Assembly: GCA_964016885.1 (NCBI GenBank)
Contig: OZ024743.1
Coordinates: 100,068,001 to 100,132,000 of the forward strand
Direction: 5' to 3'
DNA: 64,000 bases
DNA from: Eledone cirrhosa
Lineage: Eukaryota
A program made the position numbers and the translations under genes. The notes below the pieces were generated by a model. The model had not been told where the DNA came from. It saw only the letters and a program-made list of their open reading frames with translations, and did no database searches. This document shows, in pieces, positions 3,748-59,607 of this stretch (position 1 is its first letter; every line of letters starts with the position of its first letter).

Positions 3748-5278
3748 AATTTCTATTTATTTGCCACGAGGGCACAAAAGAAGGGGACATTTACACAGTG
3801 GGGGAGTTTACATAAATCGAGTAAAGAAAAAAGGAATAACAATAATAATATAACAATAAAAAGTCCTCAAAAGGGAGGGGGCGTGTTGGGGATTGCACAT
3901 ACCCCCGAAAAGTGTGCAACTCTTTTCGCGGGGGAAGCCCAGAGAGGAGGCGCTCCCCCTTTCCTCTTCACTTCTTCACCTACAGAACAATGTAGAGAGA
4001 AGGCCCATTTACACGGGCCATTCTCGCTTCTTTCACCCACCTTTCATAAAACTGTCTGGGACCAAGCACTTCTCTCTCCATCCTGATTCTTCTTCCGAAG
4101 TGGTATCGGAAGAAGTAAACCAGGTGATGGCCGGAGAGAAAGTCACCCGACCTCAGACCTTTCAGGCGCGTCCACCACACAACCTCTTTCATCATGGCTA
4201 TTACGCACAGAAAGACCGCCTCTGCTTCATTTCTGAAGGGAGGAGGCGGCTTGATGTTCACCACAGACTCGGCGGTTAATCGAATCGGCGCCACACGCGA
4301 CAGCAGTCGTTCGACGTAGCCCCACAGATCGGCAACGCCCGGGCAGTGTACCAGTGCATGCGCAACGGTTTCCTCGTCGCGCACGCATCTGGGACAGATC
4401 TTTTTCGCGGGATCCCTGCCCGGGCGCCCGTGTCTGTAGAGCTTTTCTCGAACGGGCAGAGCCCCCCGGTAACACTGCCAGGCTAGGGACCTCTGGAAGT
4501 TGTCCATGGGTCCCGGGCCGAAAGTTCTACCGAACAGGCTGGCCAGTTCGTCCTCCTCCATGCCTAGCGACTCTCCAAGGGTGTCGTCGCCCCTGCTAGC
4601 CACCAACCCTCTATAGAATGTCGAGGTGGATTCTCCACTGACAGTCGGGTCCGCTTGCCCGATAGCCGTGAGCGCCTGGGCACACTCAGTGTGCCAGTTG
4701 CCCAGTTTTCTCGGTCTTTGCTTCACCCAGGATTGCAGTTCGGTGAGCGAGACGAGCTGTGGGAAGGCTCGCCTCACAAACGGGGCCCACACCGGCTGAC
4801 CGTTGAGGAATACCTGTAGATGCCGTAGCCTCAATGCGTGCCTACGCATCAACAGCCACGGCATACCCAGCCCTCCTTTCGAAGGGTGCTGGCAGCAGAT
4901 GGATCTCCTCACCATGGGAGGCCGCTTCTTCCAGAGGAACTGGAAGAGCATGCGTTCCATGATGGTGAGCTTTTCCTTGGGGCAAGGCACGACGGTCAGG
5001 CGGTAGTAGATGACGGACGCTATGTAAGCGTTCGTCACCTCCGCCCGACCTTTCAGTGATAGTTTGCACTTGGCCCACTTCTGGGTCAGCGCAAACACCC
5101 TGCTCGTCACCTCGCCCCAATTCTTCTCCACCTGGAGGTCCGGTCCGAACCAGACCCCGAGCAGCTTCACCGGGCCCTCCGTCCACCGCCCGACGACACC
5201 GTCTAACGGCATCGGTTTGCCCCTCCACGTTCCGAGTTGCAAACCGACTGACTTGTCCTGGTTCAGCTTAGCCCCCGG
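3748..5278 (-). mobile_element. 5'-truncated Tx1/L1-group non-LTR retrotransposon (copy a)
   Basis: ORF2 C-terminus (GPVKLLGVWFG; CPRC..EETVAHALVHC); 3' UTR ends AATAAATAGAAATT; GACTGACAGGTAGATA on both sides (3732-3747, 5279-5294). Confidence 0.93.
3980..5278 (-). pseudogene. Partial ORF2 of copy a (RT thumb region to C-terminal Zn motif), uninterrupted
   Basis: 420-aa ORF homologous to ORFs at 5688-8015 and 48165-51461. Confidence 0.9.
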
Positions 5279-5422
5279 GACTGACAGGTAGATAGACAGG
5301 TAGACTGACAGGTAGACTGACAGGTAGACTGACAGGTGGACTGACAGGTAGACTGACAGGTAGACTGACAGGTAGATAGACAGGTAGACTGACAGGTAGA
5401 CTGACAGGTAGACTGACAGATA
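5279..5422. repeat. 12-bp satellite, short block between the two LINEs
   Basis: About 12 units of CAGGTAGACTGA and variants. Confidence 0.98.
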
Positions 5423-8017
5423 AGTTTCTTTTATTTGCCACTAGGGCATCAAAAGTGGGACAAGTACAAAGGGGGGAGTTTACACAAAAAGGCGTCCTCA
5501 ATAAGGAGGAGGCAATAACAAAATATAAAAATAAAATAAGATATAACAAAAAATAAAATTTTTAACAAAATCCTCAATAGAGAGGAGGCGCCTTGGGGGG
5601 TCGCACACACCCCCGAAAAAAAGTGTGCAACCCTTTTCCTCAGGAGCACAGAGAGGGGGTGCTCCCTCGTTCCTTCCTCTTTTCCACCTACAGGCTTATG
5701 TAAAGAGAAGGCCCATTCACACGGGCCATTCTCGCCACTTTCACCCACCTTTCATAAAAACGACTGGGGTGCAGCACCTCTCTCTCCATCCTGATCCTTC
5801 TTCCGAAATGATATCGGAAGAAACGGACCAGTTGTTGGCCAGAGAGAAAGGCGCCCGACCTCAGTCCTTTCAGACGCGTCCACCATACAACCTCTTTCGC
5901 CATGGCTATTACGCACAGAAACACCGCCTCTGCTTCATCTTTGAAGGGGGGAGGCGGCTTGATCATTACAATAGACTCGGTGGTCAACCGGATCGGTCCC
6001 ACCCTTGACAGCAGTTGTTCGACATAGCCCCACAGATCGGCTACGCCCGAGCAGTGTACCAATGCGTGTGCAACGGTTTCCTCGTCGCACACGCATCTGG
6101 GACAGATCTTTTTGGCGGGGTCCCTACCCGGGCGCCCGTGTCTGTAGAGCCTTTCTCGAACGGGTAAAGCCCCTCGGTAGCACTGCCAGGCCAGGGACTT
6201 CTGGAAGTTGTCCATAGGTCCCGGGCTGAATGTCCTACCGAACAGGCTGGCCAGTTCGTCCTCCTCCATGTCTAGGGCTTCTCCGAGGGCGTCGTCGCAC
6301 CTGCTGCGTACCAGCCCTCTATAGAATGTTGCGGTGGAGTCTCCACTGATAACCGGATCCGCCTGCCAGAGGGCGGTGAGCGCCTGGGTACACTCAGTGT
6401 GCCAGGCGCCCAGTTTTCTCGGTCTCTGCTTGACCCAGGATTGCAGTTCGGTGAGTGAGACGAGTCTGGGAAAGGTTCGTCTCACAAACGGGGCCCACAC
6501 CGGTTGTCCGGTGAGGAATACGTAGAGGTGCCGTAGCCTTAATGCGTGTTTACGCATCATTAGCCACGGCATCCCCAGCCCTCCTTTCGAAGGGTGTTGA
6601 CAGCAGATGGATCTCCTCACCATAGGAGCCCGCCCCTTCCAAAGGAATTGGAAGAGCGCGCGCTCCATCTTGGTGAGGGTTTCCCTTGGGCAGGGCACTA
6701 CGGTCAGGCGGTAGTAGATGACGGACGCTATATAAGTGTTCGCCACCTCCGCCCGACCTTTCAGGGATAGTTTGCAACTGGCCCACTTCTGGGTCAGTGC
6801 AAACACCCTGTTCGTAACCTCCGCCCAGTTTTTCTCCACCTGGAGGTCCGGTCCGAACCAGACCCCGAGCAACTTCACCGGGCCCTCCGTCCAGCGTCCG
6901 ACGACGCCATCGGAGGGCATCGGTCTGCCCCTCCACGTGCCGAGTTGCAAACCGATCGACTTGTCCCGGTTCAGCTTAGCCCCTGTGAACTTTTCGTACT
7001 CCTCCAGTAAGGTGCCGACCGCCTCGATTTCGGAGGCCGTCGAGACCATTACTGTCACGTCATCGGCGTAGGCCGACACCGCTTTCCGCAATCCCGGTTC
7101 CAAAGGGATGCCCTGCAACAACTCCAACTTCCGCAGTAGTGGCTCGAGAGTCAACACATACAGAAGGGAGGAGAGAGGGCACCCTTGTCGGATGGACCGC
7201 GCGATTTTGAACGGCTCCGAGAGGTAGCCGTTCACCTTGACCCTAGAGCAGATGCGGCTGCTGTGCATAGCAGTGATCCAGCCCCTGAAAACGGGTCCGA
7301 AGCCTGCCGCCGCTAGCACCGCATCCAGGTAACCATGGTCGACCCTATCGAACGCCTTAGATTGATCCAAGTTGATCAGAGCCCCACCAAAGCCGGGTTC
7401 GTTCCCAACCCTCTCTATGATGTATCGCATGAGGTGGAGGTTGTCATGGATGGACCTGGACGGGATAGCGCATGTCTGCGCATCTCCCACCAGGTTGCCC
7501 ACGACAAGCGCCAACCTCTTTGCTAGCACCTTGGCCAAAATCTGTAACTCTGTATTTAGCAGAGTTATGGGCCTGAAGTTACTTATTTCGTCCCCCTTGT
7601 TCTCGTCCTTCCTCACTAGCGTGACTACGCCCTTGGTCACAGTACAGGGAATTCTCCCGTTCTGTTGCCAGTTGCAGTAGACCGCCTCGAGGAGATCGGG
7701 GAACAAGTCCGGCATAGCTAGATATAATTCGTAAGGAAGACCATCGAGACCCGGGGATTTGCGTTTGCCGCATTGGCCCAGCACGTCCTCTATCTCAGCG
7801 GCCGAAATCGGCTCCTCGCAAGACTTCGCCTCCCTGTCCGAGAGGCGCGGCAGGCCGTCGAGGTATGGACCGAAGTCCACGTTTCCAACCGGCTCCCCGC
7901 CCCTCCCGAACAGTCGGGCAAAGTGCCTTTGAAAGGCCTCACACATCTGCTTAGGCTCAAGAATCGCCCGTCCATCCAGGTCTCGCAAAGACCGGATGGT
8001 GGATTTAGTTCCACTGT
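5423..8017 (-). mobile_element. 5'-truncated Tx1/L1-group non-LTR retrotransposon (copy b)
   Basis: RT motifs KSPGLDG, FRPITLLN, LDQSKAFDRV, RQGCPLS, YADD; C-terminal CPRC..H..C; 3' end AATAAAAGAAACT; TAGACTGACAGATA on both sides (5409-5422, 8018-8031). Confidence 0.95.
5688..8015 (-). pseudogene. Partial ORF2 of copy b (complete RT domain, no endonuclease), uninterrupted
   Basis: C-terminal ~775 aa of the 1752-aa ORF; no stops or frameshifts. Confidence 0.92.
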
Positions 8018-59366: not shown

Positions 59367-59579
59367 GTTTTTGTTGTTTAAAATAAATATTGGGCACAAA
59401 ACCCCAATAAGCTGTAATTTAACCCCGAAGGGCCAAATAACGGGCAGAAAGACCCCTCTCGCGAGGAGGAGGGTGTTTTTGTCTACAATTTGGTTAAAGT
59501 TTTAAACAATTTACAATTGTTATAGCGGTCAAAATTTACAATACCTTACAGAGCCGAGCCTCCGTCAACCATAGCATTC

Positions 59580-59607
59580 AATAATAATAATAATAATAAT
59601 AATAATA
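59580..59607. repeat. (AAT)n at the Tx1 5' junction
   Basis: Seen directly. Confidence 0.97.

What the first reader, a model, noticed from the sequence alone, without database searches (positions are those of the whole stretch)
3748..59607. Apparent target switch within one Tx1 lineage: GATA-associated copies a/b versus (AAT)n-associated full-length copy c
Seen: all three share long identical peptides (GPVKLLGVWFGPDLQ and GPMDNFQ in all; SIHDNLHLMRYI and LINLDQSKAFDRVDH in b and c). They also share a poly(A)-less terminus: CCCTCGTGGCAAATAAATAGAAATT (a), CCCTAGTGGCAAATAAAAGAAACT (b), CCCTTGTGGTTAATAAAGAAATC (c). Copy c has (AAT)n at both its 3' (47756-47805) and 5' (59580-59607) ends, so the repeat is a target and not only a tail. 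Inference: close relatives divide up different simple repeats. Copy c supplies an intact-looking APE domain for mapping specificity residues, which could matter for programmable insertion tools.
Basis: partly seen in the sequence, partly recalled or inferred. Interest (0 to 1): 0.75.

Follow-up and report, generated by a model that had tools for sequence, protein, structure and literature searches.

The report
Repeat-targeting LINE clades with different targets
One LINE retrotransposon superfamily of about 33,000 copies has branches that each sit in a different repeat, (ATT)n, (GATA)n or one site of a satellite, likely because their endonucleases nick different short motifs; this behaviour is known for Tx1-type elements, here with targets not found in the papers searched.

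Summary
Copies a, b and c exist as described, share the quoted peptides and a poly(A)-less 3' end, and c has (ATT)n at both ends.

Genome-wide checks support the target reading.
- The shared 3' motif occurs 32,926 times, against 113 for a reversed control.
- c-family 5' ends are preceded by (ATT)n in 30 of 30 loci. Their 3' ends are followed by it in 29 of 30.
- Full-length a- and b-family copies have (TATC)n upstream in 25 of 30 and 26 of 30 loci (at least 2 units).
- At non-repeat sites, target-site duplications start exactly at TATC or ATTAT.

On a tree of 57 copies the flank label follows the clade. A third clade, nested among TATC lineages, hits one fixed position of a 60-72-bp satellite.

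- Copy c is dead. It carries a nested 5.7-kb LTR element, an ORF2 frameshift and a private zinc-knuckle deletion.
- The "Tx1" label could not be tested by phylogeny. The elements are L1-group by homology to human L1 ORF2p.

Microsatellite targeting and target change among Tx1 relatives are already published, so this is a new member of a known kind. A SINE with at least 150,000 copies appears to use the ATT clade's machinery.

The parts
1..3745 (.). 12-bp satellite, (TCAGTCTACCTG)n on the - strand, with TCTATCTACCTG variants. It is the host array of copies a and b.
   Evidence: TRF period 12, 312.7 copies. 71 TATC sites in 3745 bases.
3748..5278 (-). Copy a: 5'-truncated element of the a subfamily (ORF2 C-terminal 431 aa plus 3' UTR). 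It ends ..AATAAATAGAAATT and abuts TATC. The 16-bp target-site duplication is TATCTACCTGTCAGTC.
   Evidence: On the tree its end branch is 0.0011 within a 5-row all-TATC clade (100/100).
5279..5419 (.). 141 bp of the same 12-mer satellite, lying between a and b.
5423..8019 (-). Copy b: 5'-truncated element of the b subfamily (773-aa RT-to-end frame plus 3' UTR). It ends ..AATAAAAGAAACT and abuts TATC. The 14-bp target-site duplication is TATCTGTCAGTCTA.
   Evidence: End branch 0.001.
8020..10877 (.). Continuation of the 12-mer satellite upstream of b.
   Evidence: period 12, 238 copies.
47756..47805 (-). (ATT)16.7 directly after the 3' end of copy c, read on the element strand.
47806..59579 (-). 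Copy c: full-length ATT-clade element interrupted by a nested LTR retrotransposon. It is about 6.1 kb without the insert.
48165..51656 (-). Open 1163-aa frame of copy c's ORF2, holding APE, RT and part of zf-RVT. A frameshift near 48165 puts the last ~35 codons in another frame. A private 5-aa deletion lies in the CCHC knuckle.
52118..57833 (+). Nested LTR retrotransposon (Ty3/gypsy-type pol: RVT_1, RNase H, integrase). LTRs at 52118-52561 and 57371-57833 are 94% identical including one indel. It splits ORF1 of copy c.
57834..59501 (-). 5' part of copy c: 5' UTR and ORF1 in two overlapping frames. It contains a CX2CX4HX4C knuckle (KCFRCGSKTHLRAFC).
   Evidence: Intact ORF1s of relatives give zf-CCHC below Pfam's cut-off.
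59580..59612 (-). (ATT)11 directly before the 5' end of copy c. It is shared with the 5' junction of a + strand RLE-type LINE fragment.
43275..43452 (+). Unoccupied 3-unit array of the 60-bp satellite that the third (satellite-specific) clade targets.
   Evidence: The same unit flanks 12 of 12 copies of that clade.

Best explanation
Copies a, b and c belong to one APE-type (L1/Tx1-like) LINE superfamily of about 33,000 copies whose clades are flanked on both sides by different repeats, and each clade's endonuclease likely nicks its own short motif, with the repeat-bearing 3' end of the RNA predicted to anneal at the nick.

Shown:
- The ATT clade, which includes c, sits in (ATT)n.
- Several TATC clades, which include a and b, sit in (TATC)n = (GATA)n or at single TATC sites.
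- A clade nested among the TATC lineages joins one fixed position of a 60-72-bp satellite.
- Insertions at non-repeat sites make 11-17-bp target-site duplications that begin exactly with TATC (b family) or ATTATT (c family).

Inferred:
- The bottom strand is nicked after ...GATA or ...AAT, and that 3'-OH primes reverse transcription.
- The conserved AAUAAA, 6-9 nt before the element's end, would place transcript ends inside the downstream repeat. This would give the RNA a few target units to pair with the primer and would explain the lack of poly(A) in the copies.
- A conserved 4-bp hairpin with loop CUNGU just upstream is the predicted reverse-transcriptase recognition site.
- Each insertion leaves target repeat on both sides, which would explain the head-to-tail arrays.
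For: Superfamily size: the 3' motif has 32,926 matches against 113 for the control.

c family:
- 3' ends: 29 of 30 loci have (ATT)n within 6 nt; one has (TTC)n.
- 5' ends: 30 of 30 loci are preceded by (ATT)n. At least 7 of these lie behind another element's 3' end.
- 5'-truncated copies: L001, L008 and L024 have ATT upstream, and L005 has the duplication ATTATTCCTAAG.

b family:
- 3' ends: 30 of 30 loci have TATC at the junction, and 19 of 30 have at least 2 units.
- Full-length 5' ends: 23 of 30 loci have at least 3 TATC in the last 24 nt, and 26 of 30 have at least 2.

a family: 24 of 30 loci have at least 3 TATC upstream.

Duplications starting at the motif:
- L076: TATCTTGCCTTGGCTTG.
- L084: TATCTAGATAAATAAA.
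- L194: TATCTGTTTAC.
- Window copy a: 16 bp. Window copy b: 14 bp.

Position-ordered sample of 100 motif sites on C1: ATT 37, TATC 37, satellite 11 (plus 1 variant), other 15.

Tree of 57 rows:
- ATT clade 100/100: 17 rows ATT-labelled and 2 rows labelled 'other' whose flank begins with one ATT.
- Satellite clade 100/100, nested among TATC lineages.
- 10 label changes against a shuffled mean of 30.1.

Satellite clade: 12 of 12 junctions fall at the same satellite position. An empty array lies in the window.

Protein: ORF2 is colinear with human L1 ORF2p over APE to RT (E 1.5e-48), and the catalytic APE positions align.

Hairpin: the two free stem pairs are paired in 94 of 100 and 73 of 100 copies. 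Stem types are TG..CA 39, AA..TT 15, GG..CC 6.
Against: - No biochemical data exist, so endonuclease specificity is inferred from junctions only.
- Inside microsatellites the duplications cannot be read.
- The first repeat unit at a 3' junction could be element-encoded in some copies.
- 15 of 100 sampled flanks fit no label, though most resemble the target, for example (TA)n or a single ATT.
- In the position-ordered sample the b subfamily often has only one TATC or a TATA run, so its specificity is loose.
- The APE segment aligned to L1's hairpin-loop region barely differs between clades. APE is more diverged than RT in every pair, including a against b, which share a target. No specificity determinant is therefore identified.
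- Hairpin covariation is confounded by relatedness.
- No RNA data bear on read-through.
- The loci are the best-scoring matches, not random samples.
Confidence: 0.8

Rival explanations
1. The endonuclease is only weakly specific. Most of the specificity comes from base pairing between read-through repeat units on the RNA 3' end and any nick in a matching repeat. A 'target switch' then needs only a founder copy that landed in a new repeat, not a change in the protein.
For: - AAUAAA lies 6-9 nt from the end, so transcripts would include flank.
- The hairpin-loop segment of APE is nearly identical between clades.
- The b subfamily tolerates TATA and TATC variants.
- The satellite site ACTCTATATATAC resembles the TATCTATATA flanks of the b family.
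Against: - Insertions at unique sites begin their duplication exactly at a single TATC or ATTAT, where at most 4-5 nt could pair.
- The flank label is stable across clades of many subfamilies despite thousands of insertions.
- The satellite clade uses one fixed position in 12 of 12 copies.
Confidence: 0.13
2. The simple repeats are tails made by the elements themselves, as some LINEs end in short tandem repeats. The 5' repeats would only reflect head-to-tail arrays.
For: - Every copy ends in the repeat rather than poly(A).
- Many 5' ends lie behind another copy's 3' end: at least 7 of 30 for c, 10 of 30 for b and 15 of 30 for a.
Against: - Many to most full-length 5' ends have the repeat with no element upstream (23 of 30 for c, 20 of 30 for b, 15 of 30 for a).
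- 5'-truncated copies also have it.
- Duplications at unique sites contain the motif on the 5' side.
- a and b sit in a pre-existing 12-mer satellite at its rare TATC variants.
- An unoccupied satellite array exists.
Confidence: 0.04
3. Insertion is random, and copies survive preferentially in harmless repeats, which gives an apparent association.
For: Repeat-rich regions tolerate insertions, and clusters of several subfamilies occur, for example C1:12370539-12381911.
Against: - Survival bias cannot make sister clades choose different repeats.
- It cannot fix junctions to one base of a motif or satellite.
- The copies are very young, 97-100% identical.
Confidence: 0.03

Closest known systems
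Kibi (TC)n and Koshi (TTC)n, Tx1-clade LINEs of teleosts. Also crocodilian Tx1 families in (TTCC)n/(TTTC)n, satellites and DNA transposons. Sources: passages of PMC4494074 and PMC3812793, which cite Kojima & Fujiwara 2004; that paper itself was not read.
   Same: - APE-type LINEs flanked by a specific microsatellite.
- Related families differ in target.
- Kojima's threshold for target specificity (more than 20% of flanks) is exceeded here.
   Different: - Targets here are (ATT)n, (GATA)n and one site of a 60-72-bp satellite.
- The host is probably a cephalopod.
- About 33,000 copies.
- Clade membership with Kibi/Koshi was not tested.
Tx1L of Xenopus laevis, which inserts into the DNA transposon Tx1D (PMC4494074 passage, citing Christensen et al. 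2000).
   Same: A site-specific APE LINE that hits one position of another repeated sequence, like the satellite-specific clade here.
   Different: The target here is a short tandem satellite. No biochemical proof of endonuclease specificity exists here.
Dong (R4 clade), specific for (TAA)n in silkworm, mosquito and a snail (PMC3812793 passage; PMC3774820 passages).
   Same: - Same microsatellite as the ATT clade, read on the other strand.
- A fragment of an RLE-type LINE lies at 59613-60372, flanked by (AAT)n, so the two kinds appear to share targets.
   Different: Dong has a C-terminal restriction-like endonuclease. Copies a, b and c have an N-terminal APE, so they are not Dong.
Human LINE-1 (solved ORF2p structures 9k6g, 8uw3, 8sxt).
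   Same: - Best solved relative, colinear over APE, linker and RT (E 1.5e-48).
- 5' truncation and variable target-site duplications.
   Different: - L1 ends in poly(A) and nicks loosely at TTTT/AA (recalled).
- The elements here have no poly(A), motif-specific junctions, and an ORF1 with a zinc knuckle.
Waldo (ACAY)n and Mino (AC)n, R1-clade microsatellite LINEs (PMC3812793 passage).
   Same: APE-type elements with microsatellite targets.
   Different: A different clade by name, with no solved R1-clade sequence in the matches. Not tested by a tree.

Membership tests
APE-type non-LTR retrotransposon, L1 group | ORF2 with an N-terminal apurinic-type endonuclease followed by a reverse transcriptase. 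| tested here: met
   Exo_endo_phos at residues 87-275 (E 1.4e-13) and RVT_1 at 576-819 (E 2.8e-29) in copy c.
APE-type non-LTR retrotransposon, L1 group | Closest solved relative is L1 ORF2p, colinear beyond the RT core. | tested here: met
   Residues 69-919 align to 7-874 of human ORF2p (E 1.5e-48). R2 proteins match the RT only (E 1e-20 or weaker).
APE-type non-LTR retrotransposon, L1 group | Catalytic APE residues present. The positions N14, E43, Y115, D145, N147, D205 and H230 of L1-EN are recalled, not from a call. | tested here: met
   In the alignment the columns siNacg, isEtr, avYap, vGDwN, ylDrv and tDHk match L1's N, E, Y, D/N, D and H.
APE-type non-LTR retrotransposon, L1 group | 5' truncation and target-site duplications of variable length. 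| tested here: met
   Copies a and b are truncated, with 16- and 14-bp duplications. Genomic copies have 11-17-bp duplications.
Tx1 clade | RT-domain phylogeny groups the element with named Tx1 references rather than L1 proper. | not testable with these tools
   No named Tx1 sequence could be obtained. One search gave no Tx1 names, one search gave no names in the clusters, and one search gave generic names. Indirect support: 'L1-Tx1' is the only L1-group class among recently active LINEs listed for Octopus vulgaris (PMC13282606, Table 1 passage).
Tx1 clade | Target-sequence-specific insertion, typical of the clade though not exclusive to it. | tested here: met
Tx1 clade | ORF1 with RRM/zf-CCHC-type domains (PMC5203782 passage). 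| tested here: inconclusive
   zf-CCHC at E 0.0054 and 0.019, below Pfam's cut-off, in 2 of 3 ORF1s. No RRM match. A CX2CX4HX4C motif is visible in copy c.
Microsatellite-specific LINE (Kibi/Koshi type) | The same repeat at both junctions in far more than 20% of copies (criterion quoted in PMC4494074). | tested here: met
   c: 30 of 30 at 5' and 29 of 30 at 3'. b: 26 of 30 at 5' (at least 2 units) and 19 of 30 at 3' (at least 2 units). a: 25 of 30 at 5'.
Dong / R4 clade ((TAA)n-specific) | Restriction-like endonuclease C-terminal to the RT, with no APE. | tested here: not met
   Copies a, b and c carry an N-terminal APE. The RLE motif is found only in the separate + strand fragment at 59613-60302.

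The most novel reading that the evidence does not exclude
A single radiating L1/Tx1-like superfamily has re-aimed its nick site at least three times: ATTAT, TATC, and one unique satellite position. Open full-length ORF2 frames survive for the TATC and satellite clades, and the APE domains compared are only 61-79% identical, which makes a natural swap series for mapping APE specificity. Its ATT clade would also be the engine behind the genome's dominant SINE (at least 150,000 copies). That would make a motif-specific LINE, not a promiscuous one, the main driver of repeat expansion in this genome.
Probability: 0.4. Interest if true: 0.65.

Novelty: new member of a known kind. Interest (0 to 1): 0.45.

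Why it matters
Target-specific APE-type LINEs are the natural models for asking how an apurinic-type endonuclease reads sequence. This genome offers many young copies of sister clades with three different targets. Open full-length ORF2 frames exist for three of the families (the a and b TATC families and the satellite family). The pair with a recent switch, b family against the satellite clade, is 77% identical in APE and 90% in RT. That narrows where specificity determinants can lie more than the fish or crocodilian examples do.

It also shows how such elements shape a genome:
- head-to-tail arrays inside microsatellites and satellites;
- two unrelated LINE kinds sharing (AAT)n;
- a very abundant SINE that appears to share the ATT clade's target motif and 3' hairpin.

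The principle itself is already established, that relatives in the Tx1 clade partition repeats. The value here is as a richer system, not as a new mechanism.

Tried and rejected
- Naming the clade: no Tx1-named relatives came from the homologue search (closest named hit is a hypothetical protein of Argonauta hians), from cluster look-ups (no useful names) or from the ESM Atlas (generic names). Tx1 membership stays untested.
- Earlier scan notes: nothing held for this genome or sequence.
- RNA evidence: no RNA holder listed. Nothing was laid, so transcript ends are untested.
- Beta-hairpin-loop idea: the segment aligned to L1's loop region is WTWTNRVGSSRSYLD in c and WTWANRSGSSRSYLD in b, so there is no clear switch there. 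APE is more diverged than RT in all pairs, including pairs that share a target, so overall divergence does not point to a determinant.
- A four-sequence RNAalifold run gave only a weak 4-bp hairpin. The count on 100 copies is more informative but is confounded by relatedness.
- 'a and b are one insertion duplicated with the satellite' is rejected. They belong to different subfamilies (87% aa), each nearly identical to other genomic copies, and have different duplications.
- Rows L118, L134 and L167 were dropped from the final tree because their coding stretch belongs to a neighbouring copy.
- Literature: searches found no paper describing (ATT)n- or (GATA)n-specific Tx1 elements or target-specific L1-Tx1 in cephalopods. 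Repbase and subscription journals were not searchable. The supplements of PMC4494074 and PMC13282606 were not opened and may list such families.
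Full report
**Setting.** The window is G000:C4:100068001-100132000 of a 3.0-Gb eukaryote genome. The closest named relative of the element's ORF2 is a hypothetical protein of the octopod Argonauta hians, at 69% identity. The host is therefore probably a cephalopod; this is an inference.

**The three copies.** All lie on the - strand.
- Copy a (3748-5278) and copy b (5423-8019) are 5'-truncated. 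Both sit inside one array of a 12-bp satellite, (TCAGTCTACCTG)n on the element strand.
- Copy c (47806-59579) has an open 1163-aa ORF2 frame with Exo_endo_phos and RVT_1.
- a and b are 87% identical. b and c are 70% identical.
- None of the three ends in poly(A).

**Copy c is not intact.**
- A Ty3/gypsy-type LTR retrotransposon on the + strand (52118-57833) splits its ORF1. The LTRs are 52118-52561 and 57371-57833.
- ORF2 is frameshifted near 48165.
- The CCHC knuckle has lost five residues that 16 other ATT-clade copies keep.
- (ATT)n flanks it at 47756-47805 and 59580-59612.

**Is the repeat a target? The c family.**
- Of the 30 best genomic matches to the last 300 nt of c, 29 are followed by (ATT)n within 6 nt and one by (TTC)n.
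- Of the 30 best matches to the first 250 nt, 30 are preceded by (ATT)n. At least 7 of these stand behind another element's 3' end, so head-to-tail arrays occur.
- Among eight copies truncated within 1.7 kb, three have ATT repeats upstream. One (L005) has the 12-bp duplication ATTATTCCTAAG. Four are unclear.

**Is the repeat a target? The a and b families.**
- All 30 best matches to b's 3' end have TATC at the junction, and 19 have at least two units.
- Full-length copies were recovered and their 5' ends searched. For b, 23 of 30 have at least three TATC in the last 24 nt upstream, 3 have two, 3 have one and 1 has none. For a, 24 of 30 have at least three, 1 has two, 4 have one and 1 has none.
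- At non-repeat sites the duplications begin with the motif: TATCTTGCCTTGGCTTG (L076), TATCTAGATAAATAAA (L084) and TATCTGTTTAC (L194).
- In the window, a has the 16-bp duplication TATCTACCTGTCAGTC and b the 14-bp TATCTGTCAGTCTA. Both start at TATC variant sites, which occupy only 1.9% of positions in the satellite.
- So a and b are independent, motif-directed insertions into the satellite. The "GATA association" is real.

**Size and structure of the superfamily.**
- The conserved terminus CCCTNGTGGNNAATAAA has 32,926 matches, against 113 for the reversed control.
- The first 100 places on contig C1 form a sample not chosen by family. Their flank labels are: (ATT) at least 3 units 32, two units 5, (TATC) at least 2 units 20, one unit 17, a 60-72-bp satellite 11 (plus one variant), other 15.
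- A maximum-likelihood tree was built on the last 960 nt of ORF2 for 57 rows, after dropping three rows whose coding part belongs to a neighbour.
  - The ATT clade has 100/100 support: 17 rows ATT-labelled and 2 labelled 'other' whose flank begins with one ATT.
  - A large clade holds TATC-labelled lineages.
  - Nested at least two well-supported nodes inside that clade is a monophyletic satellite clade (12 rows, 100/100).
  - The labels need 10 changes, against a shuffled mean of 30.1 (0 of 200 as low). Eight of the ten changes are single 'other' rows.
- The root is not known, so the direction of change between ATT and TATC is open. With the ATT clade as outgroup, the satellite target is derived from a TATC ancestor.

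**The satellite clade.**
- All 12 copies join the satellite at the same position...GAAAYY|ACTCTATATATAC.
- Six of them form a tandem array with about 5.7-7.1 kb spacing.
- The window holds an unoccupied 3-unit array of this satellite at 43275-43452.
- This is a sharper target switch between closer relatives than a/b against c. The b family and this clade are 90% identical in RT and 77% in APE.

**What the protein is.**
- ORF2 of c aligns colinearly with human LINE-1 ORF2p over residues 69-919 (E 1.5e-48), and the catalytic APE positions are conserved. R2 proteins match only the RT.
- ORF1s carry a single CCHC knuckle, below Pfam's threshold.
- This places the elements in the L1 group.
- Placement in the Tx1 clade proper could not be tested, because no named Tx1 sequence was obtainable.
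- It is plausible, because 'L1-Tx1' is the only L1-group class listed among recently active LINEs of Octopus vulgaris (PMC13282606, Table 1 passage).

**Mechanism.**
Shown:
- motif-precise junctions;
- duplications of 11-17 bp;
- no poly(A);
- a conserved AATAAA 6-9 nt before the end.

Suggested by counts:
- a conserved hairpin xyCC[CUNGU]GGy'x'. Its two free pairs are paired in 94 of 100 and 73 of 100 copies, with alternative stems TG..CA, AA..TT and GG..CC. Relatedness inflates this.

Inferred:
- The endonuclease nicks the bottom strand after ...GATA or ...AAT.
- Transcripts end inside the downstream repeat.
- The repeat units on the RNA pair with the primer, and the hairpin is the reverse-transcriptase recognition site.
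- That other site-specific APE LINEs depend on read-through is recalled, not from a call.

**Search for specificity residues.** APE is 58-62% identical between c and the other families and 72-79% among the others. It is always lower than RT. The segment aligned to L1's hairpin-loop region differs by only 1-3 residues. The most divergent blocks between c and b lie just after the GDWN motif and near the N- and C-terminal thirds of APE. No determinant can be named.

**Comparison with what is known.**
- Passages of PMC4494074 state that Tx1-clade families are target-specific. Examples are Tx1L in Tx1D, Keno in U2, Kibi in (TC)n, Koshi in (TTC)n, and crocodilian families in (TTCC)n/(TTTC)n, satellites and DNA transposons. 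Targets follow phylogeny.
- PMC3812793 lists the microsatellite-targeting LINEs known in 2013: ACAY, AC, TC, TTC, and TAA by Dong. (GATA)n is not listed, and (TAA)n appears only for the RLE-type Dong.
- My seven searches found no report of these targets for Tx1-type elements or of target-specific L1-Tx1 in cephalopods. Repbase and several supplements were not seen.
The phenomenon is a new member of a known kind.

Noticed in passing
window 35478-35595 (-) and about 61250-61440 (-); loci L199-L228: A SINE of about 180 bp with a T-arm-like box (TTCAAATCCCGCCGAGG) ends in GGCCTTGTGCCNAAAGTAGAAACA. That 24-nt end has 152,897 exact matches in the genome, against 0 for the control. 28 of 30 sampled copies are followed by ATT and 21 of 30 by ATTATT. 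At least 11 of the 21 copies with a recognisable head have 13-20-bp duplications that begin ATTAT or ATTA. The window copy has the duplication ATTATCTACTAGTCACA. Its 3' hairpin GGC[CUUGU]GCC has the same loop as the LINE hairpin. The ATT clade is likely its autonomous partner. It may be one of the octopus SINEs of Ohshima & Okada 1994, a paper seen only as a citation.
   Followed up: partly
window 59613-60372 (+): A 5'-truncated fragment of an RLE-type LINE. Its 230-aa C-terminus matches the restriction-like endonuclease domain of R2 proteins (E 8.5e-4). It is flanked by (AAT)11 upstream and (AAT)3 downstream. The reverse complement of its 3' end (..CCAGTTAA.TAACATCAATGACTGAGACTCAAAG(AAT)n) is the recurrent flank behind at least 10 ATT-clade copies. 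So the APE-type ATT clade often lands in the (AAT)n ends of this Dong-like family. Two unrelated LINE kinds appear to share one microsatellite target.
   Followed up: partly
L191 (G000:C1:11280450-11286650) against window 51545-59579: A tandem-array member of the c family matches copy c only from ORF2 onward (95% over 3.8 kb). Its 5' UTR and ORF1 region of about 2.1 kb finds no match in copy c's 5' part. ATT-clade elements therefore seem to carry alternative 5' modules.
   Followed up: no
L091, L132, L144, L145 (downstream of satellite-clade copies): The 60-72-bp satellite arrays end in a recurring non-satellite sequence (..ATCGAATCTATGAGATTTTGATATTATTTATTTTGAGAACAATACC..). The satellite may therefore be an internal repeat of a larger dispersed element, which recalls Tx1L inside Tx1D.
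   Followed up: no
window 11286-23784: A 12.5-kb array of a 31-bp satellite (CCTTCACTACACCTCTCAGTCTACACCACCC, 404 copies, 93% matches) lies next to the 12-mer array and has a very strong C-over-G skew. No element was found inserted in it.
   Followed up: no
G000:C1:12370539-12381911: Five 3' ends of different TATC-type subfamilies lie within 11 kb. Loci L158-L161 show copies truncated into one another. This is a local pile-up in one (TATC)n region.
   Followed up: no
window 43581-44449: An array of 50-bp units (CTCATGGTGGTCCATAGGTGTGCTAGAAATAGCAGCTAAATGAGGGAAA) with 72% matches. The motif GTGCTAGAAATAGCA also appears in the flank of locus L005.
   Followed up: no
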